A stretch of 64,000 bases of DNA, taken from the NCBI GenBank assembly GCA_052437795.1, contig JBQVPA010000008.1. One strand, given 5' to 3'. This stretch comes from Flavobacterium sp. GTDB lineage: Bacteria > Bacteroidota > Bacteroidia > Flavobacteriales > Flavobacteriaceae. A program made the position numbers and the translations under genes. Position 1 is the stretch's first letter, and every line of letters starts with the position of its first letter. Positions 1,106 to 13,731 of this stretch are shown in pieces. The notes under the pieces were generated by a model. It saw only the letters and a list, made by a program, of their open reading frames with translations. It made no database searches and had not been told where the DNA came from.

Positions 1106-2114
1106 TGCCGCCTTTACAAGCTATAAGATCGAGGACAAAAGTTATGTTTCATTTATAAAGCGGGAGATCCATAACCTTGCGACAGCTAAGGGATATAGTT
1201 CACAAAAAACGGGTGAGATCGATATTATCATATCTGAACTCACCTCGAACCTGACAAAATTCGTTGGGGAGGGGGAACTTTTATACCGCGCTGCAAGCGA
1301 CAGGAATGGTGATTTTTTTGAGATGTACTGCCTTGATGACGGGCAGGGCATTACGAACCTCAACAGGATGCTGCAGGATGGTGAATCCTCAGCAAAAACG
1401 CTGGGGCAGGGACTTGGAGCGGTACATCGGCTAAGTTCGGAATCTTCTGTATATACACTTAAAGGATGGGGGACGGTAGTATATTCAAAAATTTACAAAG
1501 AAGGACCCAAAATCTCAAAAAATAAGTCTCCTGTTGAAGTTACAGGTATAAAGGTCAACATGCCGGGAGAACTGGTTTGTGGGGACGGATTTTTAGTAAA
1601 GGAAATTTACGGGGGCTATATGTTTTTTTTGTGTGACGGATTAGGCCACGGGGAATATGCCAGCGAAGCAGCAAATGAAGCCATTGATGCATTCAGGATA
1701 TGCAGGGAAAAAAGCCCTGCGGAGTTATTGAAGTTCATACACCTACAGGTAAAAAAAACCAGAGGGCTCGTAGGCACGGTCGCGTTTCTTGACCTGAATG
1801 AAAAAAAGTGGAGGATATGCGGGATAGGTAATATCTCGACATCAGTCATTACAGGCCTTGAAGGGAAAAATTACACGCCTTATAACGGTATCATAGGGAT
1901 GAATATCCCACGTACCTTAAATGATTCTGTAGTAGACCTTCAAAAGTACCAAACCCTGATCATGCATAGCGACGGGCTTAAGAACAGGTGGAATATTAAC
2001 AGCCTGCCGGGACTTATGAAGCATCCCCCGGGTATTATCGCTTCATGCCTGTTTAAGGATAACGCCAGGCGCACAGACGATATGTCTGTTCTTGCGGCTA
2101 AAATAAATATATGA
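1098..2114 (+). CDS. HATPase + PP2C/SpoIIE phosphatase fusion (RsbX-like)
   Basis: N-terminal IIISELTSNL...DDGQGI...TLGQGLGAV; C-terminal PP2C motifs CGDG, CDGLGHG, MHSDGL, RTDDMSV. Confidence 0.82.
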   Translation: MDNAAFTSYKIEDKSYVSFIKREIHNLATAKGYSSQKTGEIDIIISELTSNLTKFVGEGELLYRAASDRNGDFFEMYCLDDGQGITNLNRMLQDGESSAKTLGQGLGAVHRLSSESSVYTLKGWGTVVYSKIYKEGPKISKNKSPVEVTGIKVNMPGELVCGDGFLVKEIYGGYMFFLCDGLGHGEYASEAANEAIDAFRICREKSPAELLKFIHLQVKKTRGLVGTVAFLDLNEKKWRICGIGNISTSVITGLEGKNYTPYNGIIGMNIPRTLNDSVVDLQKYQTLIMHSDGLKNRWNINSLPGLMKHPPGIIASCLFKDNARRTDDMSVLAAKINI

Positions 2115-3715
2115 GTATGAAGGAGATCTTACGCATTCGCCTTGACAATGAGATGGACCTCATACTGGCACACAAACGGACAATGAAGTTGGCGGAACTT
2201 TGCGGATTGTTTTCTTCAGCGCAGACGCGATTTGCAACCGCGGTTTCTGAGATCACGCGATGTTCTATTGCTAATGGGCTTGAGTCAAGCCTGACACTGG
2301 GCATACGCACAGTTCCCGGCGGAAAGAAGGAGATCTCTGCAATTATTTATGACAGGATCGATCTGGCAAAGTGCAATCCTGAAGCTATCGCCTACGCCGA
2401 GCGACTTTCAAAAGGCATTTTAATGGACTTTGAGAGTGATGTCTATTCCATCACATTAAACGCAAAAGTACCCTATTCCGGCATCTTATCAGAAGGCAGG
2501 GCAGAATCATTCATCGATTTTTTTAAGAGGGAAGCGCCGCTGTCCCCCTATGATGAGATCCGCAGAAAGAACATACAGCTTATTGAACTTGCAGATAAGT
2601 TAAGTGAGAGTGAAGGCAGCTACAGGCAGCTTACCGATACGCTGCCGCTAATTGTATTCTCTGTCTCTAAATCAGATAAAATTAGTCTGGTCAACAAGAG
2701 CGCAGAAACTATTCTCGGACCAAGTTACAGGGATCTCTCGCCTGCGGTAATTTCACTCATTATATATAAAGATGATATTGAATATGTGGCAAGGGCCTGG
2801 AGTACCGCAAAGAAAAAATATTCGCTGCAATTATTGCAGGCAAGGGTAGTTATGGATGGCAAGGCTATTTGGCATCAAATATCTTTTGTCCCTAATGCGG
2901 ACGACAAAAATGATATAACCGGCTGGATCGTAACGATGGTTAACATTCATGCGCAAAAACTCGTTGAAGAAACCCTTAAAGATAACAAGGAACTCAAAGA
3001 GGCGCAGGATAAGCTAAGATTATACAATGACGAACTTCAAAAAAAGAATAAAGAACTGGAGCAATTCGCTTATGTGGCAAGCCACGATCTGCAGGAACCA
3101 TTAAGAAAGATCAGGAATTTTATTTCACTGGCCCAAAGGAGCAGGTCGGATAACGAGAAGCAAGACCTTTATTACAGCAAGATCAATTCTTCGGCCGAAA
3201 GGATGTCGCATCTTATCACGGATGTATTGGGGTATTCCAAACTTTCTGTCACCTCAGACGAATTTGCTATGGTTGACCTCAATAGTGTGATAGCTGATGT
3301 GATCGGTGATTTTGAGTTTTTGATCAATGAAAAAAATGCAGAGATATCAGTCGGGGAAATGCCTCAATTATCAGGCAGCCCCGTGCAGCTCAGCCAACTA
3401 TTTTACAACCTTTTAGGCAATTCCCTGAAATTTGCAGATGCAGTTCCCAAGATCAGTATATACAATGAAGTCGTTAGTGCTGAAGGCGGCCAATTCAATA
3501 AGATCACGTTATCGGATAACGGTATCGGCATTTCGTCCCAATACATCGAAAAGATCTTTACAATGTTCAAGCGCCTTCATTCCCAAAATGAGTATCCCGG
3601 TACCGGAATAGGTTTGGCCATCTGTAAGAAAATAGCAGAAAACCACTCCGGCAGGATCGAGATGGAAAGTACGCCGGGCGCTGGGACAACAGTTCATGTG
3701 TACCTTCCGGTCTAA
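2111..3715 (+). CDS. Sensor histidine kinase: RsbT-like N-terminal module, PAS, HisKA, HATPase
   Basis: N-terminal QTRFATAVSEITR; H-box YVASHDLQEPLRKI; N-box NLLGNSLKF; DNGIGI; GTGIGLAICKK. Confidence 0.87.
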   Translation: MSMKEILRIRLDNEMDLILAHKRTMKLAELCGLFSSAQTRFATAVSEITRCSIANGLESSLTLGIRTVPGGKKEISAIIYDRIDLAKCNPEAIAYAERLSKGILMDFESDVYSITLNAKVPYSGILSEGRAESFIDFFKREAPLSPYDEIRRKNIQLIELADKLSESEGSYRQLTDTLPLIVFSVSKSDKISLVNKSAETILGPSYRDLSPAVISLIIYKDDIEYVARAWSTAKKKYSLQLLQARVVMDGKAIWHQISFVPNADDKNDITGWIVTMVNIHAQKLVEETLKDNKELKEAQDKLRLYNDELQKKNKELEQFAYVASHDLQEPLRKIRNFISLAQRSRSDNEKQDLYYSKINSSAERMSHLITDVLGYSKLSVTSDEFAMVDLNSVIADVIGDFEFLINEKNAEISVGEMPQLSGSPVQLSQLFYNLLGNSLKFADAVPKISIYNEVVSAEGGQFNKITLSDNGIGISSQYIEKIFTMFKRLHSQNEYPGTGIGLAICKKIAENHSGRIEMESTPGAGTTVHVYLPV

Positions 3716-3720
3716 CAGGT

Positions 3721-6261
3721 TTAAATTTCCCCTTTAAAATGGCGCTTTAAATAAAGTGCTGTCCGGCTTTCCGGACTTTTTGCTATTTGCGCAGGGATTC
3801 CTTGTGCAACGATCTTCCCACCCTTATTGCCAGCGCCGGGCCCAATATCGATAACCCAGTCACTTTGTACGATCACATCCATGTCGTGTTCTACCACGAT
3901 CACAGTATTGCCGGCATCGACCAGTCCCTTTAGCTGTACCATGAGCTTTTCTACGTCAGACGGGTGCAGCCCTGTTGTGGGCTCGTCCATTATGTACAAG
4001 GCATTACCCTGTTGCGCCCGCTGAAGTTCGGTTGCCAGTTTTATGCGCTGCGCTTCGCCACCGGAGAGTTCTGTAGCGGGCTGGCCCAGCCGCAGGTATC
4101 CCAAACCTACCTGCCGAACGACATCGAGGGCATGTGCGACAGGTCTCTCGTTATGAAAGAAGTCATACGCCTCATTTACGGTCATCCCCAATACTTGGGC
4201 TATGTTCCTGCCTTCATATTCCACCTCAAGGGTCTGCGCATTGTATCGTGTACCATGGCAGGTAGGGCAGGGCGAGTAGACACTGGGCAGGAAGAGCAGC
4301 TCGACCATCACGAAGCCTTCTCCCTGGCAATGGGGGCAACGGCCTTTTGCGACATTGAATGAAAATCTCCCGGCATCGTATTTCCTTGATCGTGCCAGTT
4401 TTGTCGCTGCGAATAATTTCCGGATATTGTCAAAAAGGCCAGTATAGGTGGCAAGGTTCGATCTGGGTGTCCTGCCGATCGGTTTTTGGTCGACCACCAC
4501 AAGCCGTTTTATATCTTCAAGGCCTTCTGTAATAGTCCCTCCAAGAGTTTCGATATTTGCCTGCTCTAAAGGGTTTTCATCGGTTTCGGCAGTAGTATCT
4601 ATCGATGCGCCAAGGTGGTTTGCGACCAGTTCGACAAGCACCTGGCTTACCAGTGTGCTTTTCCCGGAACCCGATACCCCTGTAACGCTTGTGAACACGC
4701 CCAAAGGAAGATCTACCGACAAGTCGCTTAGATTATTTTTGGTTACGCCCGTTAATTTAAGCCATCCCTTTGGAACCCTTGTAGCCTTGCCCGCCACTTT
4801 CCTGTCACCGAAAATATAGTGGCGCGTTATCGATCCCTCCACTTTTTTAAGGCCGTCGGGCGGACCGCTATACAGCACCTGCCCTCCCGATTCCCCGGCC
4901 GCAGGGCCAACGTCGACTATCCAGTCGGCATGCCGGATCACATCGATCTCATGCTCAACGACAAACAATGAATTGCCGGATGCCTTAAGCCTGTCCAGCG
5001 ACCGTAATAATGCCTCGGTATCCGCGGGGTGCAGCCCCGCGGATGGCTCGTCCAGGACATACACCACACCGAACAGGTTCGAACGTACCTGGGTAGCAAG
5101 CCGGAGCCGCTGCAATTCGCCCGGCGAAAGGGTAGGGGTGCTGCGTTCGAGGGTAAGATAGCCAAGGCCAAGGTCCAGGATCACGTTCAGCCTGGCCAGC
5201 AGGTCTTCGGCAATGCGATAGGCTACCAGTGTTTTTTCGGGGTGATCCTTATCGGCTTTTGCCAATTGTTCGGACAGGGGTTTTGCGAATGCTGCGAATA
5301 TTCCTGCCATATCCTCTAAAGGCACCCGGCTCATTTCGGCAATATCTAATCCCGCAAAGGTCACCGACAACGATCCTTTACGCAGCCGCTTTCCATTGCA
5401 TAGCGGACATTCGCTGCTTATCATGTATTGGGATACCCGTTTCTTCATAAGCGCGCTCTGCGTATTGGAGAACGTATGCATTACATAGCGCCTTACCCCC
5501 GTGAACGTGCCCATATAATCAGGCGGCATTTTTTTCTTTACTGCCTCCCTTGTCTGTTCCGGGCTGAGTCCCGGGTACACAGGCACTACCGGCTGCTCGT
5601 CGGTAAATAGTATCCAGTCACGGGTCTCTTTGGGCAGATCTTTCCACGGAATATCGACATCGTGGCCCAGGGTTACCAGTATATCCCGCTGGTTTTGCCC
5701 CTGCCAGGCCAGCGGCCATGCAGCAACAGCGCGTTCCCTTATTGTAAGCGAGTCATCGGGTACCATAGATCTCTCGGTCACTTCGTATACTTTGCCCAGG
5801 CCATGGCACTGCGGACAGGCACCTTCGGGCGTGTTGGAAGAGAAGGCTTCAGCATATATTATCGATTGGCCGGGGGGATAATCGCCGGCCCGGGAGTATA
5901 GCATCCTGAGCAGGTTGGACAACGTGGTAACACTGCCTACAGAAGACCGTGTACTCACAGCGCCGCGTTGCTGCTGCAGGGCTACCGCCGGGGGCAGCCC
6001 CTCGATCGAGTCGACCTCAGGTATGGCCATTTGGTTGAACAGCCTCCGGGCGTATGGCGATACCGAATCCAGGTACCTGCGTTGCGCTTCGGCATATAAC
6101 GTACCAAAGGCAAGGGAGGATTTTCCGGAACCGGAAACTCCAGTAAATACCACAAGCGCGTCGCGTGGTATGTCCACATTGATATCCTTGAGGTTATGCT
6201 CGCGTGCGCCATTTACTGTTACAAACCCTGTGAATTCTTTCTTGTTCTTTTCCTTTGTCAT
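3721..6261 (-). CDS. uvrA: UvrA-family ABC ATPase, class II (UvrA2/DrrC-like, appears to lack the UvrB-binding domain)
   Basis: GAREHNLK, two Walker A motifs GVSGSGKS, signatures LSPGELQR and LSGGEAQR, CxxC zinc modules; short segment between SRAG and the first zinc finger; 846 aa. Confidence 0.88.
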
Positions 6262-6420: not shown

Positions 6421-9400
6421 TCATACTATCGGCAGGAACAGATTAAACGCGGCCCCTTTGCCGGGTACTCCTTCCGCGGTTATAAAGCCATTATGCTTGA
6501 AGGCGATCTTGCTGCAGATAGCCAGTCCGATCCCCGTCCCTTCGAATTTATCCTTACCGTGCAGGCGCTGGAAAGGCTCAAAAATACGTTGTGACTGATC
6601 CTGTGCGAAACCTATACCGTTATCTGTAATACTGATCTTATGATAGCGGGTTTCCGGATCTCCCTCAATATTGCCCTTTTCTGCAATGGCTGCAGTGATC
6701 TTTATAATGGGTGCCTTTTCCGGCGACCGGTATTTTAGTGCATTGCTGACAAGGTTTACAAGCAGCTGTCGCATCAGTAGTGGGTGTGCCGAGATCATGG
6801 GCAGCTTTGCAACTGTAACCGTGGCTTCTGTTGATCGTATCGATTCTGAAAGTTCCTCTGTAACCTCATTAACAAGCGACTCCAGATCAGTATTCTCAAA
6901 ATCTTTTACATCAAGGTTATTCAGGTGCGAATAATTAAGCAGGTCGTCCGTAAGCTGTTGCATCCTGCGTACCGAAACCATGATCCTCTCCAGGTAGGTA
7001 GCAGCTTCTTCAGAGATCGTAGAGCTGCTGTCCTTTAGTATCATCTTCCCGAAGGTATGTATCTTGCGCAGTGGTTCCTGCAGGTCATGGCTGGCGATAT
7101 AATTAAACGTGGTCAATTCCCTGTTGCTCTCGATCAGCTCGCGGTTGTTGTGCTGCAGGGTGATATTTGCAGCCCTTATCTCAGTAATATCCTCTATCGC
7201 CAAAAGCAGCAAAGGTTCGCCAAGTACATCGCTGAGTATCGGCCTTATGTTAAGCAGCATGACCCTTTCCTCTTTGTTGGAAAGGCGCATCTTAAGTTCC
7301 AGCCCCTCTATGGTTACCTTATCCTGCAGTGCCCTCGCAAGCTCTCCTTTTAGATCACCGATATGCCATTGCACATTTTTAAGGTCAAAGATCATCTTGC
7401 CATCGGTGTCCTGCTCATTGGTTTGCAGGTATTTGTAAAAAGCCGCGTTCGCGCTCTTAATGCTGAATTCCTTATTGAGTATCACCAGCGGCTCCCGTAT
7501 GGTCTGTATGATCGCTTCGGCATACAGCCTTGCCGTAGTTAGCTGTTCCTGCCTGTCAATGAGCTCATCATTTATGGTAGTGAGCTCTTCATTGTTGGAG
7601 CGTAATTCTTCTGTTGAAGTCTCAAGTTCCTCATTGAGCGTCTGCAATTCTTCGCTGTTGCTAAGCAGTTCCTCATTGGCGCTTTGCAGTTCTTCGTTGG
7701 CCACTTCCTGCTCCTCGCTCACCTTGCGTATGTCGTGGCGCATCTGCTCGATCTCTGCCTCAAGTTGCTTTATCCTTTCTGACTCCGCGTTTTTGCGTTT
7801 TAAGATAGCCATACCTTCATCTGCTACTAATGGCAGCTTGTGGAATAATATCAGTATATGGCCTTCTTCATTCGCGTTTTCCAACGGAATGACTTCAAGG
7901 CTCACCAGAAAATTCTCTCCTCTTAGAGCCAGTTGCTCCTTCAGTACCGGTTCATTGTCAGTCTTTACCTTTAGCAGGGCAGCACGAAGCTCGAACACGA
8001 GGTCCGGCCGTAGCATTTTGAATATATTAAAATTAGGCTTTCCGGGAGGCTGCGACAGGAACTGGCCCGTCTCTCCATGAAAGTGGATGATCTCTCTTGT
8101 GTTATTTATAATTACGCCTGCGGGAGTATATTTAGTAAATAGCAGCTCATTAGCCTTTCTTTGGAAATCAGGTTCATAAGGTTTCTTCCGGGGCTCGCTT
8201 TGCCTTTCGGTCTGCTCATTTTCAAAACGCTTATAGGGTGCAGGCACAAAGCTTTCCGATGCATTTTTTCGGGCATATATCTTTTGCCCCTTTAATAATG
8301 GCTCGAAAAGGTTAGATGACGTGCCCGCTGTTTCCGACTTTCCTAAGAACAATACGCCATTTGGCCTTAGTGAATAATGGAATGTGCTGAAGGTCTTTTT
8401 TTGCAGGAACGGGTCAAGATAGATCAGCACGTTCCTGCAGCTGATGATATCCATTTTTGCGAATGGAGGGTCTTTGGTAAAGTTATGTACGGCAAAAATG
8501 CACATGTCCCGTATCTCCTTTTTGATATGGTAGGCGCTCTCGATCTTCGTGAAATAGTTAGTAAGCCTTTCTTCTGGGATATTAAGGATCTCCTGCCTGC
8601 TGTAAATGCCTGTCCTTGCTTTAGAAATGACATTTTCAGAAATATCGGTGGCAAATATCTGTACTTTATAATCCTGTATGCGCTCGCCCAGGAATTCATG
8701 AAGGCTTATCGCCATCGAGTAGGCTTCCTCTCCTGTAGAGCATCCTGCGATCCAGACCCTGATGGTCTCGCCGGCCCTCTTATCTTCGATCACCCGGGGA
8801 AAGGCATTTTCGCACAGCATGCTGAATATCTTGCTGTCCCGGAAAAAGTAGCTTACGGGAATAAGGATATCATTAAAAAGCGACAGCTGCTCCTGTTTGT
8901 TCGTGCGCAGGTAGTCGAGGTAGGCTTCGGTATCCTCGCGTTTTGTCATCACCATCCTGCGCGCGATCCTCCGGCGTATCGTGGCCTGCTTATAATGTGT
9001 AAAATCGTTGCCTGTTTTCAGTTTCAGCAGCCTGAGGATGCTTTTGTAAAATTCATCATCTTTAGACGAGAGTATATCATCATCTGCGTAGGCATTACTG
9101 CTTTCATAGGCGGTGTCGAGGTCATGCAGCTTTTGGGGTATCTCTTCAACTTCCAGTATAAAGTCGGCCGCACCTGCCCGTATCGCGCTAAGCGGCATGC
9201 CGTCGTGGGCGGCCGATTCAGGGTTTTGCACAAAAGTAGAGCCCCCCATTTCTTTAATGGTCTTCAGTCCGAGGGTGCCGTCATATCCGGTGCCTGAAAG
9301 TATCACGCCGCGTGCGAATCCCTGGTGTACTTCAGCAAGTGAGTTAAAGAACTGGTCGATCACAAGGTTCAGCTTTTTTCCTGTATCGCGTGGATCAAGC

Positions 9401-9705
9401 TTAAGCTTTCCGTCGTATACGGTAAGCATCTTATTCTCCGGGATAATGTAGATATGGTTGGGCGCGATGTTGATGTCGTCCGTGATCTCATGTACCGGAA
9501 GCTCAGTTTCACCAGCCAGTAATTCTGTCAGGATGCTTTCATGTGCCGGGGCCAGGTGCTGTACCAATACGTAGGCCATGCCGGAATTTGGCGGGATGTT
9601 GCGCAAAAATTTCCGGAAAGCGTCGAGCCCCCCTGCAGATGCACCGATACCCACCACGGGAAAATTTATAGAATGATGTTCGGGTAATGCTTTTGTTGAA
9701 CCCAT
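6421..9705 (-). CDS. CheB methylesterase-CheR methyltransferase-coiled coil-PAS-histidine kinase fusion
   Basis: VGIGASAGGL, VQHL and LSGTGYDG (CheB); FFRD, WIAGCSTGEEAYS and SCRNVLIY (CheR); YIASHDLQEPLRKI and GTGIGLAIC (kinase). Confidence 0.9.
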   Translation of the reverse strand: MGSTKALPEHHSINFPVVGIGASAGGLDAFRKFLRNIPPNSGMAYVLVQHLAPAHESILTELLAGETELPVHEITDDINIAPNHIYIIPENKMLTVYDGKLKLDPRDTGKKLNLVIDQFFNSLAEVHQGFARGVILSGTGYDGTLGLKTIKEMGGSTFVQNPESAAHDGMPLSAIRAGAADFILEVEEIPQKLHDLDTAYESSNAYADDDILSSKDDEFYKSILRLLKLKTGNDFTHYKQATIRRRIARRMVMTKREDTEAYLDYLRTNKQEQLSLFNDILIPVSYFFRDSKIFSMLCENAFPRVIEDKRAGETIRVWIAGCSTGEEAYSMAISLHEFLGERIQDYKVQIFATDISENVISKARTGIYSRQEILNIPEERLTNYFTKIESAYHIKKEIRDMCIFAVHNFTKDPPFAKMDIISCRNVLIYLDPFLQKKTFSTFHYSLRPNGVLFLGKSETAGTSSNLFEPLLKGQKIYARKNASESFVPAPYKRFENEQTERQSEPRKKPYEPDFQRKANELLFTKYTPAGVIINNTREIIHFHGETGQFLSQPPGKPNFNIFKMLRPDLVFELRAALLKVKTDNEPVLKEQLALRGENFLVSLEVIPLENANEEGHILILFHKLPLVADEGMAILKRKNAESERIKQLEAEIEQMRHDIRKVSEEQEVANEELQSANEELLSNSEELQTLNEELETSTEELRSNNEELTTINDELIDRQEQLTTARLYAEAIIQTIREPLVILNKEFSIKSANAAFYKYLQTNEQDTDGKMIFDLKNVQWHIGDLKGELARALQDKVTIEGLELKMRLSNKEERVMLLNIRPILSDVLGEPLLLLAIEDITEIRAANITLQHNNRELIESNRELTTFNYIASHDLQEPLRKIHTFGKMILKDSSSTISEEAATYLERIMVSVRRMQQLTDDLLNYSHLNNLDVKDFENTDLESLVNEVTEELSESIRSTEATVTVAKLPMISAHPLLMRQLLVNLVSNALKYRSPEKAPIIKITAAIAEKGNIEGDPETRYHKISITDNGIGFAQDQSQRIFEPFQRLHGKDKFEGTGIGLAICSKIAFKHNGFITAEGVPGKGAAFNLFLPIV

Positions 9706-9752: not shown

Positions 9753-10178
9753 CTACTGCGTATTCGGGTGTTTGGCCATGCTCCAATAGTCAAAAATGAC
9801 CCTGAAGGTATTTTTAACCGTTTCGTAGTCACTGCCTTTCCTGAAAAATCCCTGAACGGTCATTTCGGTAAATGCCTCATTGACATCCTTCTGGTTGGCC
9901 ATGGTGGAGTAAAATACAAAGGGTATGCTTTTTCTACGAAGCTTTGGGTCGCTGTCTATCAGTTTTTTAAATTCCAGCCCGTTGTTACCCGGCAACTTTA
10001 CATCTGAAAATATAATATAAATAGACTTTGCGGTGGTGCTAAGGTATTCAAGGCCCTGTTCGGTCGTTTCAAACCATTGTACCGGATTTTTTATCCCGAG
10101 CTCATCAAAAATGGAAGTGAGCAAATGCCTGTCGTCGGCATCATCCTCAATGATAATTATTTCCCCTGTTTTAGACAT
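9753..10178 (-). CDS. Single-domain response regulator (CheY/Rcp1-like)
   Basis: IIIIEDDADD, FSDVKLPGNNGLE, FYST, FFRKG; start moved to MSKTGE because the longer ORF overlaps a promoter box. Confidence 0.85.
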   Translation of the reverse strand: MSKTGEIIIIEDDADDRHLLTSIFDELGIKNPVQWFETTEQGLEYLSTTAKSIYIIFSDVKLPGNNGLEFKKLIDSDPKLRRKSIPFVFYSTMANQKDVNEAFTEMTVQGFFRKGSDYETVKNTFRVIFDYWSMAKHPNTQ

Positions 10179-10205
10179 AATATAAAGTATAGGATCGATG
10201 AATAA

Positions 10206-10246
10206 CAAATATACCTAATGTATGTCGCATTTCCTTACACAATTTT
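10206..10246 (-). promoter_or_regulatory. Promoter with TGTAA box (AAAATTGTGTAA) and -7 element TATATTTG
   Basis: Box at 10235-10246 (minus), 21 nt gap, then TATATTTG at 10206-10213, which matches the Bacteroidota TAnnTTTG consensus. Confidence 0.6.
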
Positions 10247-10262
10247 GCATAAGTGTACTAAA

Positions 10263-10703
10263 TTAAGGGCTTATCACAAATTCGCTGAGCTGTTTTGGAA
10301 TATGCTGTTCCCAGTCATATGACAATACCTTTGCGATCAGTTTTTCAAGCCCCTCCAGGTCAAAAGGTTTTACCAAGTAGGAACTGGCCCCATATTTAAA
10401 TGCTTTTTTGATATCCGTTGGATCCTGGCTTGTGGAGTAGACAATTACCGGTACGGTATTGAACTTAGGATCTTTTTTAATATTGTCTAATGTTTCCAGC
10501 CCATTCATGACCGGCATGTTAATATCCACAAATATAATATCGGGCTCCGGCTGTCCGTTCTTAAGTTTGGAAACGAGCTCCAGGCCATCATTGGCAACAA
10601 TAAGGTTGCACTTTAATTTGAGCTTGTTCAGCGCGAACTTAAAGAAGTAGACATCGTCCATATCGTCTTCAGCAAGATAGATATTCCGGATAGCAAGTTT
10701 CAT
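10263..10703 (-). CDS. Single-domain response regulator (CheY/Rcp1-like)
   Basis: YLAEDDMDD, IFVDINMPVMNGLE, VYSTS, YLVKP. Confidence 0.9.
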   Translation of the reverse strand: MKLAIRNIYLAEDDMDDVYFFKFALNKLKLKCNLIVANDGLELVSKLKNGQPEPDIIFVDINMPVMNGLETLDNIKKDPKFNTVPVIVYSTSQDPTDIKKAFKYGASSYLVKPFDLEGLEKLIAKVLSYDWEQHIPKQLSEFVISP

Positions 10704-11037: not shown

Positions 11038-11127
11038 AACACATTGTGTTATTATTATCATAATTGGGAAGCATAGTAGTGAACAACTGTAATGATCTTT
11101 TATATTTACCTGATAAACACACCTATC

Positions 11128-11691
11128 ATGAACCTGCACCTTCGATACAATCTTGACAAGATGTGTCGTGCTGTTTTAACAGAACAGCTTGACAAACTTG
11201 GCTTCCGATACTCGCTTACCGACAGTGCATGCGTATATTTTTACGACCATGTACCTGATGAAGACTATGTCAAACTGCATGAGGCTCTACAGCAATATGG
11301 CATAGAGATACTCGATAACAAAAAGGCTGTAATGGTGCAAAAGGTGAAAGCCATTATTGGAGGAATGCTGGATAATAGCAATGCGCCGCTCATGAAAGTA
11401 TCAGCACACCTGTCAAATGAGCTTGGCGAGAATTACCGTACCATTGCCCAGATATTTAGCGAAACCTGCCACATGACCATTGAGAACTTCATCATCATGT
11501 GCAAGATCGAGCGCGCAAAGCAGCTGCTGATCGCCGAAGCGCTTTCCCTTACCGAGATCTCTTACAAACTCAACTACAGCAGCGTGGCCCATCTTTCCAA
11601 CCAGTTCAAGAAGATCACCGGCCTTACGCCCAGTTCTTTCCAAAAGATAGCCGTAAGCAGGAGGCATTTTAAAACGACCATGTTAAACTAA
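11128..11691 (+). CDS. Short AraC-family transcriptional regulator
   Basis: C-terminal KIERAKQLL...LSLTEISYKLNYSSVAHLSNQFKKITGLTPSSF; start at MNLHLRY preferred. Confidence 0.88.
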   Translation: MNLHLRYNLDKMCRAVLTEQLDKLGFRYSLTDSACVYFYDHVPDEDYVKLHEALQQYGIEILDNKKAVMVQKVKAIIGGMLDNSNAPLMKVSAHLSNELGENYRTIAQIFSETCHMTIENFIIMCKIERAKQLLIAEALSLTEISYKLNYSSVAHLSNQFKKITGLTPSSFQKIAVSRRHFKTTMLN

Positions 11692-11704: not shown

Positions 11705-12148
11705 ATGTATCTTGATAAACTTCATATTGTACTCGCAGAAGACGATCAGGATGACCGTCTTCTCTTTAATAACGTTTTTAATCATGTAAAGATCAACCAC
11801 ACCCTAAAAATTTGTGAGGATGGTATAGAACTGATGGATCACCTCAGGAATTCCGAAGAGGTTCCTGATATTATTTTCCTGGACCTTACCATGCCGGGCA
11901 AGTCCGGTATCGAATGCCTCAAAGAAATTAAAAAAGATCCAAGGCTTCGCGACATAACCATTGCGATATATTCCACAACTTCTGTAAAGGCAACGATCGA
12001 GCAGGCTTTCATACTCGGGGCCAATGTATTCATCAAAAAGCCTAACGAGTACGATGAGCTTAAAAAAGTATTGACAGAAGTTATCTACATCAACTGGCAG
12101 TACATCACCGAAGGGTTCAATAAAGAACATTTCATGATCAGCTACTAA
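11705..12148 (+). CDS. Single-domain response regulator (CheY/Rcp1-like)
   Basis: VLAEDDQDD, IFLDLTMPGKSGIE, IYSTT, FIKKP; 13 bp after the araC stop. Confidence 0.9.
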   Translation: MYLDKLHIVLAEDDQDDRLLFNNVFNHVKINHTLKICEDGIELMDHLRNSEEVPDIIFLDLTMPGKSGIECLKEIKKDPRLRDITIAIYSTTSVKATIEQAFILGANVFIKKPNEYDELKKVLTEVIYINWQYITEGFNKEHFMISY

Positions 12149-12620: not shown

Positions 12621-13217
12621 TTATTCCATTTCCTCCTGCATGCCTTCTGCCGTTCCTTCACCTTCGACAGCATCAAGATTGATCGTATTATATGCGGCAT
12701 CGGTAAGTATCACATCCGCTTCTTTTTCCTCGGCCAGGGTTTCCTCCAGCAACGAGGCAACCTCTTCTTCACCAAGGATCTTCGCAAAAGCGACAAGCGT
12801 ACCGTAAGAAGCGATCTCGTAATGCTCGATCTTTTGCGAAGCTGAGATGATGCCTGCATCCCTCACAGGACCCAGCTCGGTATCTTTCATAATGTTTTCG
12901 CCTTCTTTTATCAGGCCTTCCATAGCCTCGCATTTTTTACCGCGGCCGTTTTCGCCAAGCATTTCAAATACCTGCTGCAGGCGCTCCACCTGGCGTTCGG
13001 TCACGGCTAGGTGCTCGTTGATCGCCTCTTTAAGTTTTGGGTCGGAAGCATTGTTCGCCATCTTCGGCAGTGATCTTACCAGTGCCCGCTCAGCATATAC
13101 GATATCTTTAAGCTCATCGATAAAAAGTTCCCTCAGGCCTTCTGCCGCCGAGGATCTTGCAGGAACGGTCCTTTGTCCTTTGCCGTAATTGCTTTTGTTT
13201 TGTGCTGAATTTGCCAT
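12621..13217 (-). CDS. DUF892 / YciE-YciF ferritin-like stress protein (copy 1)
   Basis: LFIDELKDIVYAE, KKCEAMEGLIKEG, RDAGIISASQKIEHYEIASYGTL; start MANSAQ. Confidence 0.9.
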   Translation of the reverse strand: MANSAQNKSNYGKGQRTVPARSSAAEGLRELFIDELKDIVYAERALVRSLPKMANNASDPKLKEAINEHLAVTERQVERLQQVFEMLGENGRGKKCEAMEGLIKEGENIMKDTELGPVRDAGIISASQKIEHYEIASYGTLVAFAKILGEEEVASLLEETLAEEKEADVILTDAAYNTINLDAVEGEGTAEGMQEEME

Positions 13218-13251
13218 AGTTTTTTTATTTTGAATTAGTTGAATACTTGGA

Positions 13252-13731
13252 TCACCTCTTACAATGTTCATACAGAAGGCCCGCTGCCCTGTCTGTTACC
13301 TGAAGGATCATTTCTTCCGGAGCGCCTTTATATACAGTCCTGTCATTTATGGTTCCTGTTGGCGTCACAATAGAAAGGAACATGGTACCCACGGGCTTCT
13401 CGGAAGTTTCACTGCCACCGGCTGTCGTAAGCCCTGTAACGGCAACAGTGACCTTCGAATTAAATAACCGTGCCGCCTGCTTTGCCAACGCTGCCGTTAC
13501 CTCGGCAGACTCGGGTGTATGGTCTTCTATAAGCTTGTGAGGCACATTTAGTATCTGCTCTTTTACAAACACCTCATAGCACGAGATCCCGCCCCGTAAA
13601 ATTTTTCCTGATTCCTCCGTTAGTGCAAATTCCGAACACATCCTGCCGGCCGTAGCGCTCTCAACGAAAGCTATGTTCCAACCCTTTGCCGCGATGGCCG
13701 CGCTGCATCGCTTTATGATCTCTGATGGCAT
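13252..13731 (-). CDS. cinA: CinA C-terminal domain protein (PncC-like NMN deamidase family)
   Basis: IAFVESATAG, ISCYEVFVKEQIL, AVTGLTTAGGSETSEKPVGTMF. Confidence 0.8.
   Translation of the reverse strand: MPSEIIKRCSAAIAAKGWNIAFVESATAGRMCSEFALTEESGKILRGGISCYEVFVKEQILNVPHKLIEDHTPESAEVTAALAKQAARLFNSKVTVAVTGLTTAGGSETSEKPVGTMFLSIVTPTGTINDRTVYKGAPEEMILQVTDRAAGLLYEHCKR

What the first reader, a model, noticed from the sequence alone, without database searches (positions are those of the whole stretch)
7555..7760. MCP-like glutamate-rich heptad repeat inside a CheB-CheR-kinase: possible self-methylation
Seen: EQEVANEELQSANEELLSNSEELQTLNEELETSTEELRSNNEELTTINDEL gives about seven heptads and a visible 21-bp DNA periodicity. 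No chemoreceptor, CheA or CheW gene is in the window. Known: CheR/CheB modify EE/QE pairs in heptad helices of MCPs, and Flavobacteria are non-flagellated. Inference: the protein methylates and demethylates its own coiled coil to tune its kinase, a one-protein adaptation circuit.
Basis: partly seen in the sequence, partly recalled or inferred. Interest (0 to 1): 0.55.

Follow-up and report, generated by a model that had tools for sequence, protein, structure and literature searches.

The report
Methyl-accepting coiled coil of CheB-CheR kinase

Summary
Observation confirmed. The quoted peptide is verbatim in a 1094-aa ORF (window 6421-9705, minus strand) built as CheB - CheR - PAS-like - long helix - PAS - HisKA - HATPase. 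Seven to eight in-register N-E-E-L-x-[ST]-x heptads lie on one predicted 95-residue helix, with a 21-bp DNA period.

This is the MAC1 class (methyl-accepting coiled-coil proteins; Wuichet and Zhulin 2010, MiST 3.0), which a 2022 preprint describes as never characterised experimentally.

Evidence supporting a methyl-accepting role:
- The genome (99.98% complete) has no MCP, CheW, CheA or FlhA.
- The CheB triad and the CheR SAM motifs are intact.
- The Glu-Glu pairs are 91-100% conserved across 150 clusters that are at most 50% identical, more than the core Leu.
- Genome-wide, this heptad ladder occurs in three ORFs. Two are the kinases linked to CheB/CheR; the third is an unrelated Glu/Lys-rich stretch.

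Caveats:
- A second, RsbK/RsbM-like (MAC2) operon on another contig has its own CheR and CheB and a similar coil, so "one protein" is too simple.
- CheB has no receiver domain, so feedback is not shown.
- The strict MCP site consensus and the MCP fold are not met.

This scan has reached the same verdict on other genomes. Ordinary member of a known, untested class.

The parts
6421..9705 (-). Whole gene, 1094 aa (P0001): CheB - CheR - PAS-like - long helix - PAS - HisKA - HATPase. This is a MAC1-type CheB/CheR fusion sensor histidine kinase.
   Evidence: ORF list; translation; Pfam. Homologs up to 95% identical are named 'two-component system CheB/CheR fusion protein'.
9127..9654 (-). CheB methylesterase catalytic domain (aa 18-193), with no N-terminal receiver domain. 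Catalytic triad S23 / H50 / D142.
   Evidence: PF01339, E 4e-53. In the alignment to Salmonella CheB 1A2O, S23, H50 and D142 fall on S164, H190 and D286.
8302..9048 (-). CheR methyltransferase (all-alpha N domain aa 220-270, SAM-binding domain aa 285-468).
   Evidence: PF03705 and PF01739, E 9e-55. The alignment to CheR structures 5FTW and 1AF7 keeps FFRD, CSTGEE, ATDIS and CRNVLIY. W-I-A-G-C-S-T-G-E-E is one of the three most conserved peptides of the family.
8173..8259 (-). About 30 residues of low-confidence linker (aa 483-511) between CheR and the PAS-like domain. It is a possible flexible tether.
   Evidence: AlphaFold2 pLDDT is below 50 for 483-511. The tether role is inference.
7831..8169 (-). 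PAS-like alpha/beta domain (aa 513-625) with no Pfam match here. Together with the helix it forms the module specific to this family.
   Evidence: AF2 secondary structure is H-E-E-H-H-E-E-E, pLDDT about 70-85. No Pfam hit at E up to 1. The module aa 520-735 hits 12,420 representative clusters.
7501..7785 (-). Single continuous helix aa 641-735 (95 residues), the predicted coiled coil.
   Evidence: AF2 DSSP helix 641-735, pLDDT 54-79. Only generic coiled-coil Pfam noise.
7543..7716 (-). Glu-Glu heptad ladder (aa 664-721). Pairs are at 671/672, 678/679, 685/686, 692/693, 699/700, 706/707, 713/714 (D-E) and 720/721 (E-Q). These are the candidate methyl-accepting sites. This is the finding.
   Evidence: register; 21-bp period; genome-wide rarity; 91-100% conservation of the six Glu-Glu pairs; at least 6 heptads in 69 of 80 loci from many phyla.
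7174..7497 (-). PAS domain (aa 737-844) between the coil and the kinase core.
   Evidence: PF08448, E 7e-8; AF2 fold.
6430..7113 (-). Kinase core: HisKA (aa 865-929, H-box A-S-H-D-L-Q-E-P-L, His873) and HATPase_c (aa 975-1092).
   Evidence: PF00512 and PF02518. H873, N984/N988, D1028, G1030/G1032 and G1056/G1058/G1060 are invariant or nearly invariant in alignment A1.
9753..10208 (-). Single-domain response-regulator receiver gene, 47 bp upstream on the same strand. Candidate phosphorylation partner.
   Evidence: PF00072, E 9e-12. The partnership is inference from adjacency.
10263..10703 (-). Second single-domain receiver gene upstream on the same strand.
   Evidence: PF00072, E 1e-21. The sequence shows D-D, D, T/S and K signature residues (printout).

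Best explanation
The repeat is the 'methyl-accepting coiled coil' of a MAC1-class sensor histidine kinase. The protein most likely dimerises through a 95-residue helix that carries a ladder of seven solvent-exposed acidic pairs per chain (six E-E and one D-E). The CheR domain, joined to the helix by a roughly 30-residue flexible linker and a PAS-like domain, methylates these glutamates with SAM. The receiver-less CheB domain removes the methyl groups. Methylation neutralises up to about 14 charges per chain. By analogy with chemoreceptors and with Bacillus cereus RsbK, this changes the packing or rotation of the helix and so sets the gain of the signal passed through the next PAS domain to the HisKA/HATPase core. 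The core then phosphorylates single-domain receivers such as the two encoded just upstream. Shown here: the architecture, intact catalytic residues, extreme conservation of the Glu-Glu pairs, their link to CheR/CheB, and the absence of any classical substrate. Inferred: that the glutamates are methylated, whether this happens in cis or across the dimer, the effect on kinase activity, and what regulates CheB.
For: Domain order CheB-CheR-[PAS-like]-helix-PAS-HisKA-HATPase. The CheB triad S23/H50/D142 aligns to S164/H190/D286 of 1A2O, and the CheR SAM-site motifs are conserved against 1AF7 and 5FTW. The genome is 99.98% complete and has 0 MCPsignal, 0 CheW, 0 CheA dimerisation domain and 0 FlhA. 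In 151 genera of the same family, 0 have an MCP above cut-off, while about 22 have a strong CheR, nearly always inside ORFs of 700-1535 aa. In 150 cluster representatives (at most 50% identity) the six Glu-Glu pairs are 91-100% conserved, more than the core Leu at 55-98%. An automatic picker chose the EELQ..NEE peptides, with the CheR SAM motif, as the most conserved stretches of the 1094-aa alignment. The PAS-like + coil module sits behind CheR and/or CheB in 128 of the 150 representatives, and most of the rest are N-terminally cut fragments. In this genome the heptad ladder occurs in three ORFs: the two kinases linked to CheB/CheR plus one unrelated Glu/Lys-rich stretch. Published: the class is defined as MAC1 (Wuichet and Zhulin 2010, as cited in bioRxiv 10.1101/2022.05.07.491037 and PMC6943060). 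There is an experimental precedent in trans: the CheR-like RsbM methylates the signalling helix of the hybrid kinase RsbK, shown by 14C-SAM labelling (PMC4574943).
Against: No methylation data exist for any MAC1 protein. [quoted passage not shown] The full MCP site consensus [ASTG][ASTG]xx[EQ][EQ]xx[ASTG][ASTG] is matched nowhere in the protein. The half consensus EExx[ASTG][ASTG] is matched in only 2 of 7 heptads. There is no homology to MCPsignal, and the model shows a straight helix, not a hairpin bundle. CheB lacks a receiver domain, so the feedback needed for adaptation is not visible. A second CheR/CheB pair and a second Glu-Glu helix exist in the genome. The monomer AF2 model (pTM 0.44) says nothing about docking of the enzymes on the coil.
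Confidence: 0.7

Rival explanations
1. The acidic heptad helix is only a dimerisation and signalling helix (an S-helix-type linker). The CheR/CheB domains modify a different substrate in trans: the Glu-Glu helix of the second kinase (P0002), a response regulator, or another protein with Glu-Glu pairs.
For: A second kinase with a related Glu-Glu helix exists; it aligns in register with the first at 42% identity over 65 residues. CheR can methylate proteins other than receptors: Salmonella PhoP is reported as methylated on E/D pairs (PMC8546571, abstract seen). The coil does not fit the full MCP consensus.
Against: P0002 has its own adjacent CheR and CheB. In a purely structural coiled coil the surface positions drift, whereas here the Glu-Glu pairs are better conserved than the core. 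The coil module travels with CheR/CheB across phyla, including genomes that need not carry a MAC2 system.
Confidence: 0.15
2. Methylation of the coil occurs, but only between molecules (across the dimer or between dimers in clusters), possibly with cross-talk between the MAC1 and MAC2 systems. It would then be a small network and not a self-contained one-protein circuit.
For: Histidine kinases of this type are dimers (established knowledge). The 2022 preprint raises the possibility that the CheB/CheR domains of MAC1 proteins modify adjacent receptors in arrays. The two coils in this genome are similar.
Against: No CheW or other array scaffold is present in the genome. A roughly 30-residue low-confidence linker could let CheR reach its own or its partner's helix (inference). 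Nothing here separates cis from trans.
Confidence: 0.1
3. The repeat is a chance low-complexity stretch or a recent DNA tandem duplication with no specific function.
For: TRF detects a 21-bp period.
Against: The DNA copies match at only 64%, while the protein heptads are conserved position by position. Each heptad has its own identity, for example N-E-E-L-E-T-S-K is nearly invariant, and this holds across Bacteroidota, Cyanobacteria, Proteobacteria, Acidobacteriota, Verrucomicrobiota and others. The pattern occurs in only 3 ORFs in the genome.
Confidence: 0.01

Closest known systems
MAC1 (methyl-accepting coiled-coil) proteins of Wuichet and Zhulin 2010 (Sci Signal 3:ra50), with profiles in MiST 3.0; KEGG/IMG name 'two-component system, chemotaxis family, CheB/CheR fusion protein'
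   Same: CheB and CheR domains in the same polypeptide as a Glu-rich coiled coil and a histidine-kinase output. Found in genomes with or without classical chemotaxis genes. The hypothesis that the coil is the methyl acceptor is the published one.
   Different: Nothing of substance: it is a typical member. I could not read the 2010 paper or run the MiST MAC1 profile, so membership rests on architecture and on descriptions in later papers.
Bacillus cereus RsbK / RsbM (MAC2-like): hybrid kinase CHASE3-HAMP-GAF-S-helix-HK-REC, methylated on its signalling helix by a CheR-type methyltransferase
   Same: A CheR-family enzyme methylates a helix of a histidine kinase in place of a chemoreceptor, and this changes kinase output (PMC4574943). 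The second system of this genome (P0002, CHASE3-GAF-Glu-Glu helix-HisKA-HATPase-REC x3, followed by REC, CheR and CheB genes) has that architecture.
   Different: In RsbK/RsbM the enzyme is a separate protein, there is no paired esterase, and the helix lies directly before the H-box. In the finding, the enzymes are fused, an esterase is present, the ladder is longer (7-8 heptads), and a PAS domain separates it from the kinase core.
Methyl-accepting chemotaxis proteins (MCP, Pfam MCPsignal) with CheR/CheB adaptation
   Same: Glu-Glu pairs spaced exactly seven residues apart on a long helix. Small residues (S/T/A) follow two positions after the pair. CheR and CheB homologs have intact active sites.
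   Different: No MCPsignal homology and no match to the full 10-residue site consensus. The prediction is one straight helix, not an antiparallel hairpin. Output is a covalently attached HisKA kinase, not CheA via CheW. CheB lacks the receiver domain that closes the feedback loop. Almost no Gln is encoded at the pair positions.

Membership tests
MAC1 (methyl-accepting coiled-coil protein, fused type) | CheB and CheR domains in the same polypeptide as the receptor/kinase | tested here: met
   PF01339 at 18-193, PF03705 at 220-270, PF01739 at 285-468, followed by PAS, HisKA and HATPase_c in one 1094-aa ORF.
MAC1 (methyl-accepting coiled-coil protein, fused type) | Conserved Glu-rich coiled coil proposed as the methyl acceptor | tested here: met
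   Helix 641-735 carries 7-8 acidic-pair heptads. The Glu-Glu pairs are 91-100% conserved in 150 representatives.
MAC1 (methyl-accepting coiled-coil protein, fused type) | Kinase output with a phospho-acceptor His and an ATP-binding domain | tested here: met
   HisKA 865-929 with H873, and HATPase_c 975-1092. The N and G box residues are invariant in A1.
MAC1 (methyl-accepting coiled-coil protein, fused type) | Match to the MiST 3.0 MAC1 profile HMM | not testable with these tools
   The profile is not in Pfam, NCBIfam or the other libraries offered. MiST 3.0 states that it is not in Pfam.
MAC1 (methyl-accepting coiled-coil protein, fused type) | Actual methylation and demethylation of the coil | not testable with these tools
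   This needs biochemistry. The literature says it is untested.
Methyl-accepting chemotaxis protein (MCP) | MCPsignal domain (PF00015) | tested here: not met
   No hit in the whole protein or in aa 470-735 at E up to 1. None in the genome.
Methyl-accepting chemotaxis protein (MCP) | Methylation-site consensus [ASTG][ASTG]-x-x-[EQ][EQ]-x-x-[ASTG][ASTG] (consensus recalled from Alexander and Zhulin 2007, not re-read here) | tested here: not met
   0 full matches. The half motif EExx[ASTG][ASTG] is matched at 671 and 692 only among the ladder heptads.
Methyl-accepting chemotaxis protein (MCP) | Antiparallel helical hairpin forming a four-helix bundle in the dimer | tested here: not met
   AF2 predicts one uninterrupted helix 641-735 flanked by PAS folds. 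This is a monomer model of moderate confidence.
CheB methylesterase | Ser-His-Asp catalytic triad | tested here: met
   S23, H50 and D142 align with S164, H190 and D286 of 1A2O. All three are invariant or at least 90% conserved in A1.
CheB methylesterase | N-terminal receiver domain that gates the esterase | tested here: not met
   The CheB domain starts at residue 18, and there is no Response_reg match in the protein.
CheR methyltransferase | Two-domain CheR fold with SAM-binding motifs | tested here: met
   E 1e-30 to 4e-28 against 5FTW and 1AF7, aligned over 216/227-460 with conserved FFRD, CSTGEE, ATDIS and CRNVLIY.
RsbK/RsbM-type (MAC2) system | Separate CheR-type gene next to a hybrid kinase with a Glu-rich S-helix directly before the H-box | tested here: not met
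   Not met for the finding, where the enzymes are fused and a PAS domain lies between coil and H-box. It is met by the other locus of the genome, L005 9333-14661.

The most novel reading that the evidence does not exclude
In a non-flagellated, gliding Flavobacterium with no MCP, CheA or CheW, the self-methylating MAC1 kinase and the two CheY-like single-domain receivers encoded just upstream might form a complete minimal sensory pathway with a methylation memory. This would be chemotaxis-style temporal adaptation built on an ordinary two-component kinase, possibly steering gliding or stress behaviour.
Probability: 0.1. Interest if true: 0.7.

Novelty: already known. Interest (0 to 1): 0.25.

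Why it matters
If the coil is methylated, reversible glutamate methylation is not confined to chemoreceptors. It would be a general gain control for two-component kinases in thousands of bacteria from many phyla, including non-motile and gliding ones. That idea has been in print since 2010 and, in the library searched here, is backed by experiment only for the separate-enzyme RsbK/RsbM case. This locus therefore adds another clean example: both MAC types in a genome with no chemotaxis machinery. It does not add a new concept. Its practical value is as a possible model, since the organism appears to be a Flavobacterium and has no competing MCP substrates.

Tried and rejected
- Pfam and NCBIfam on the 470-735 segment gave only generic coiled-coil noise, with no PAS_10 or MCP hit.
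- Wuichet and Zhulin 2010 could not be read by PMC id or PubMed id. The MAC definition is therefore taken from later papers that cite it.
- Searches for experimental work on CheB-CheR fusions or self-methylation found nothing relevant.
- A phmmer scan for receiver genes beside the 80 related loci showed only sporadic adjacency. That scan is insensitive, so REC linkage is left as inference.
- The listing of cluster members gave almost no taxon names. Taxonomic spread was taken from the search for related loci.
- The chance or DNA-repeat explanation was rejected.
- The third genome-wide regex hit, on C2, is a Glu/Lys-rich stretch in a membrane protein without the N-E-E-L-x-[ST] pattern. It was judged unrelated by eye and no family scan was run on it.
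- Fold search was not run, because the domains were already identified by sequence and the model is above the recommended size.
Full report
**Observation.** The finding lies inside one long ORF on the minus strand, window 6421-9705, 1094 aa.
- In heptads it reads NEELQSA / NEELLSN / SEELQTL / NEELETS / TEELRSN / NEELTTI / NDELIDR / QEQ. The 51 residues hold 17 acidic and 1 basic residue.
- Tandem Repeats Finder sees a 21-bp period at 7625-7701 (3.7 copies, 64% matches).
- A regular-expression scan of all 8,871 six-frame ORFs of at least 100 aa in the 4.06-Mb genome finds three or more consecutive [EQD][EQ][LIMV]x4 heptads in only three ORFs. This ORF has the longest run, eight.

**Anatomy.**
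- Pfam gives CheB_methylest 18-193, CheR_N 220-270, CheR 285-468, PAS_4 737-844, HisKA 865-929 and HATPase_c 975-1092. Residues 470-735 have no family match, even at E up to 1.
- An AlphaFold2 model built on 65 homologs (mean pLDDT 77.9) fills this gap:
  - a low-confidence linker at 483-511;
  - a PAS-like alpha/beta domain at 513-625;
  - a second short low-confidence stretch at 628-642;
  - one uninterrupted helix at 641-735 that carries the ladder.
- After the helix come the PAS domain, a long helix into the DHp bundle, and the ATP-binding domain.
- The CheB domain has no receiver domain in front of it. Its catalytic triad is intact: S23, H50 and D142 align with S164, H190 and D286 of Salmonella CheB 1A2O.
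- The CheR part aligns over its whole length with the CheR structures 5FTW and 1AF7 and keeps the FFRD, CSTGEE, ATDIS and CRNVLIY motifs.
- The kinase core keeps the H-box His873 and the N and G boxes.
- Two single-domain receiver genes lie just upstream on the same strand, at 9753-10208 and 10263-10703.

**Is there another substrate?** The genome is 99.98% complete. It has no MCPsignal domain, no CheW, no CheA dimerisation domain and no FlhA. The same holds across the taxonomic family:
- none of the 151 genera sampled has an MCP above the Pfam cut-off;
- about 22 have a strong CheR match, almost always inside ORFs of 700-1535 aa, which means fused proteins.

A classical chemoreceptor substrate therefore does not exist here.

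The genome does hold a second CheR and a second receiver-less CheB on contig C1. They close an operon made of:
- a REC-kinase;
- a 1192-aa CHASE3-GAF-helix-HisKA-HATPase-REC x3 hybrid kinase (P0002);
- a receiver, then CheR, then CheB.

P0002 carries its own ladder (SEELRM ... SEEELRV QQEELQQ TNEELAE) directly before its H-box. This ladder aligns in register with the coil of the finding, at 42% identity over 65 residues. Two of the three ORFs in the genome with this kind of ladder are thus the two kinases linked to CheR/CheB. The third is a Glu/Lys-rich stretch in a membrane protein without the N-E-E-L-x-[ST] pattern, judged unrelated by eye.

**Conservation.**
- The PAS-like + helix module (aa 520-735) hits 12,420 cluster representatives at E up to 1e-3 in a library clustered at 50% identity.
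- Of the best 150, 128 have CheR and/or CheB in front of the module. Most of the rest start inside CheR or just before the module, so they look like cut gene calls.
- In an alignment of the coil from these 150, the Glu-Glu pairs at 671/672, 678/679, 685/686, 692/693, 699/700 and 706/707 are 91-100% conserved. The core Leu positions are 55-98% conserved. Each heptad keeps its own identity; for example N-E-E-L-E-T-S-K is nearly invariant.
- Gln is almost never encoded at the pair positions.
- When asked for the most conserved peptides of the 1094-aa alignment, the locus finder chose two EELQ..NEE peptides together with the CheR SAM-binding motif.
- It then found 594 relatives in Bacteroidota, Cyanobacteria, Alpha-, Beta-, Gamma- and Deltaproteobacteria/Myxococcota, Acidobacteriota, Verrucomicrobiota and others.
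- 69 of the 80 loci kept have at least six consecutive heptads.
- Surface positions that are better conserved than the hydrophobic core are what one expects of enzyme recognition sites, not of a purely structural coiled coil. That last step is inference.

**What is known.**
- This architecture and this very hypothesis are published. [quoted passage not shown] - MiST 3.0 carries MAC1 and MAC2 profiles (PMC6943060).
- Close homologs in public databases are already named 'two-component system CheB/CheR fusion protein', and the best hits are Flavobacterium.
- For the separate-enzyme type there is experimental precedent. In Bacillus cereus the CheR-like RsbM methylates the signalling helix of the hybrid kinase RsbK (CHASE3-HAMP-GAF-S-helix-HK-REC), shown with 14C-SAM, and this represses sigma-B signalling (PMC4574943). 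P0002 of this genome has that architecture.
- I found no paper testing methylation in a fused (MAC1) protein. I could not read the 2010 paper itself.
- Earlier follow-ups of this scan reached the same verdict on other genomes.

**Mechanism, with its status.**
- Shown: active-looking CheR and CheB domains, a very acidic conserved ladder on a long helix, a kinase output, and no alternative classical substrate.
- Inferred:
  - the protein is a parallel dimer through the helix;
  - CheR, held by the roughly 30-residue flexible linker, methylates the pairs and CheB removes the methyl groups. The covalent link would play the tethering role that the C-terminal pentapeptide plays in E. coli receptors (my knowledge);
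  - neutralising the ladder changes helix packing and so the signal passed through the PAS domain to the kinase.
- Not visible: what regulates CheB without a receiver domain, and hence whether the loop gives true adaptation.
- Not settled: the heptad register. N at a and L at d would put the pairs at b and c. L at a and a small residue at d would put them at f and g. This needs a dimer structure.

- 'MCP-like' is true only for the Glu-Glu heptad idea. There is no MCPsignal homology. The full 10-residue site consensus is matched nowhere, and the half consensus is matched in 2 of 7 heptads. The helix is straight and not a hairpin.
- 'One-protein circuit' ignores the second CheR/CheB set, the similar helix of P0002 and the missing feedback element.

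**Verdict.** This is a real, strongly selected feature and an ordinary member of a known but biochemically untested class. It is therefore filed as already known, with low to moderate interest. Its value is as a clean test case: both MAC types in a genome without chemotaxis genes.

Noticed in passing
L005 9333-15895 (G000 contig C1, about 1240333-1246895); not in the window: A second, RsbK/RsbM-like (MAC2) operon on the minus strand: REC-HisKA-HATPase (404 aa); CHASE3-GAF-Glu-Glu helix-HisKA-HATPase-REC x3 (1192 aa, P0002); a single receiver; CheR (269 aa); and a receiver-less CheB (194 aa). Unlike B. cereus RsbK/RsbM, it includes an esterase.
   Followed up: partly
window 3721-6261 (-): An 846-aa UvrA-like ABC ATPase (UvrA_DNA-bind, two ABC_tran halves, zinc-finger-like CXXC motif) lies directly downstream of the kinase on the same strand. 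It looks like a UvrA paralog, not the main UvrA.
   Followed up: no
window 9753-10208 (-), 10263-10703 (-), 11705-12148 (+), 11092-11691 (+): Three single-domain receivers, all with a Y-S-T motif, and an AraC-type regulator cluster around the kinase. A second PAS-HisKA-HATPase kinase lies at 2111-3715 (+). This could be a small phosphorelay neighbourhood.
   Followed up: partly
window 12621-13271 (-): A DUF892 protein (ferritin-like, YciE/YciF type) lies near the signalling cluster.
   Followed up: no
P0001 residues 483-511 and 628-642 (window 8173-8259 and 7780-7821): Two low-confidence (pLDDT below 50) linkers flank the PAS-like domain. The first could act as a flexible tether that lets CheR/CheB reach along the 95-residue helix.
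   Followed up: no
representatives P0130, P0164, P0173, P0189, P0217: Some relatives have a complete CheR but no CheB in front of the same PAS-like + coil module, and two have CheB only (P0184, P0199). The enzyme complement of the fused type therefore varies.
   Followed up: no
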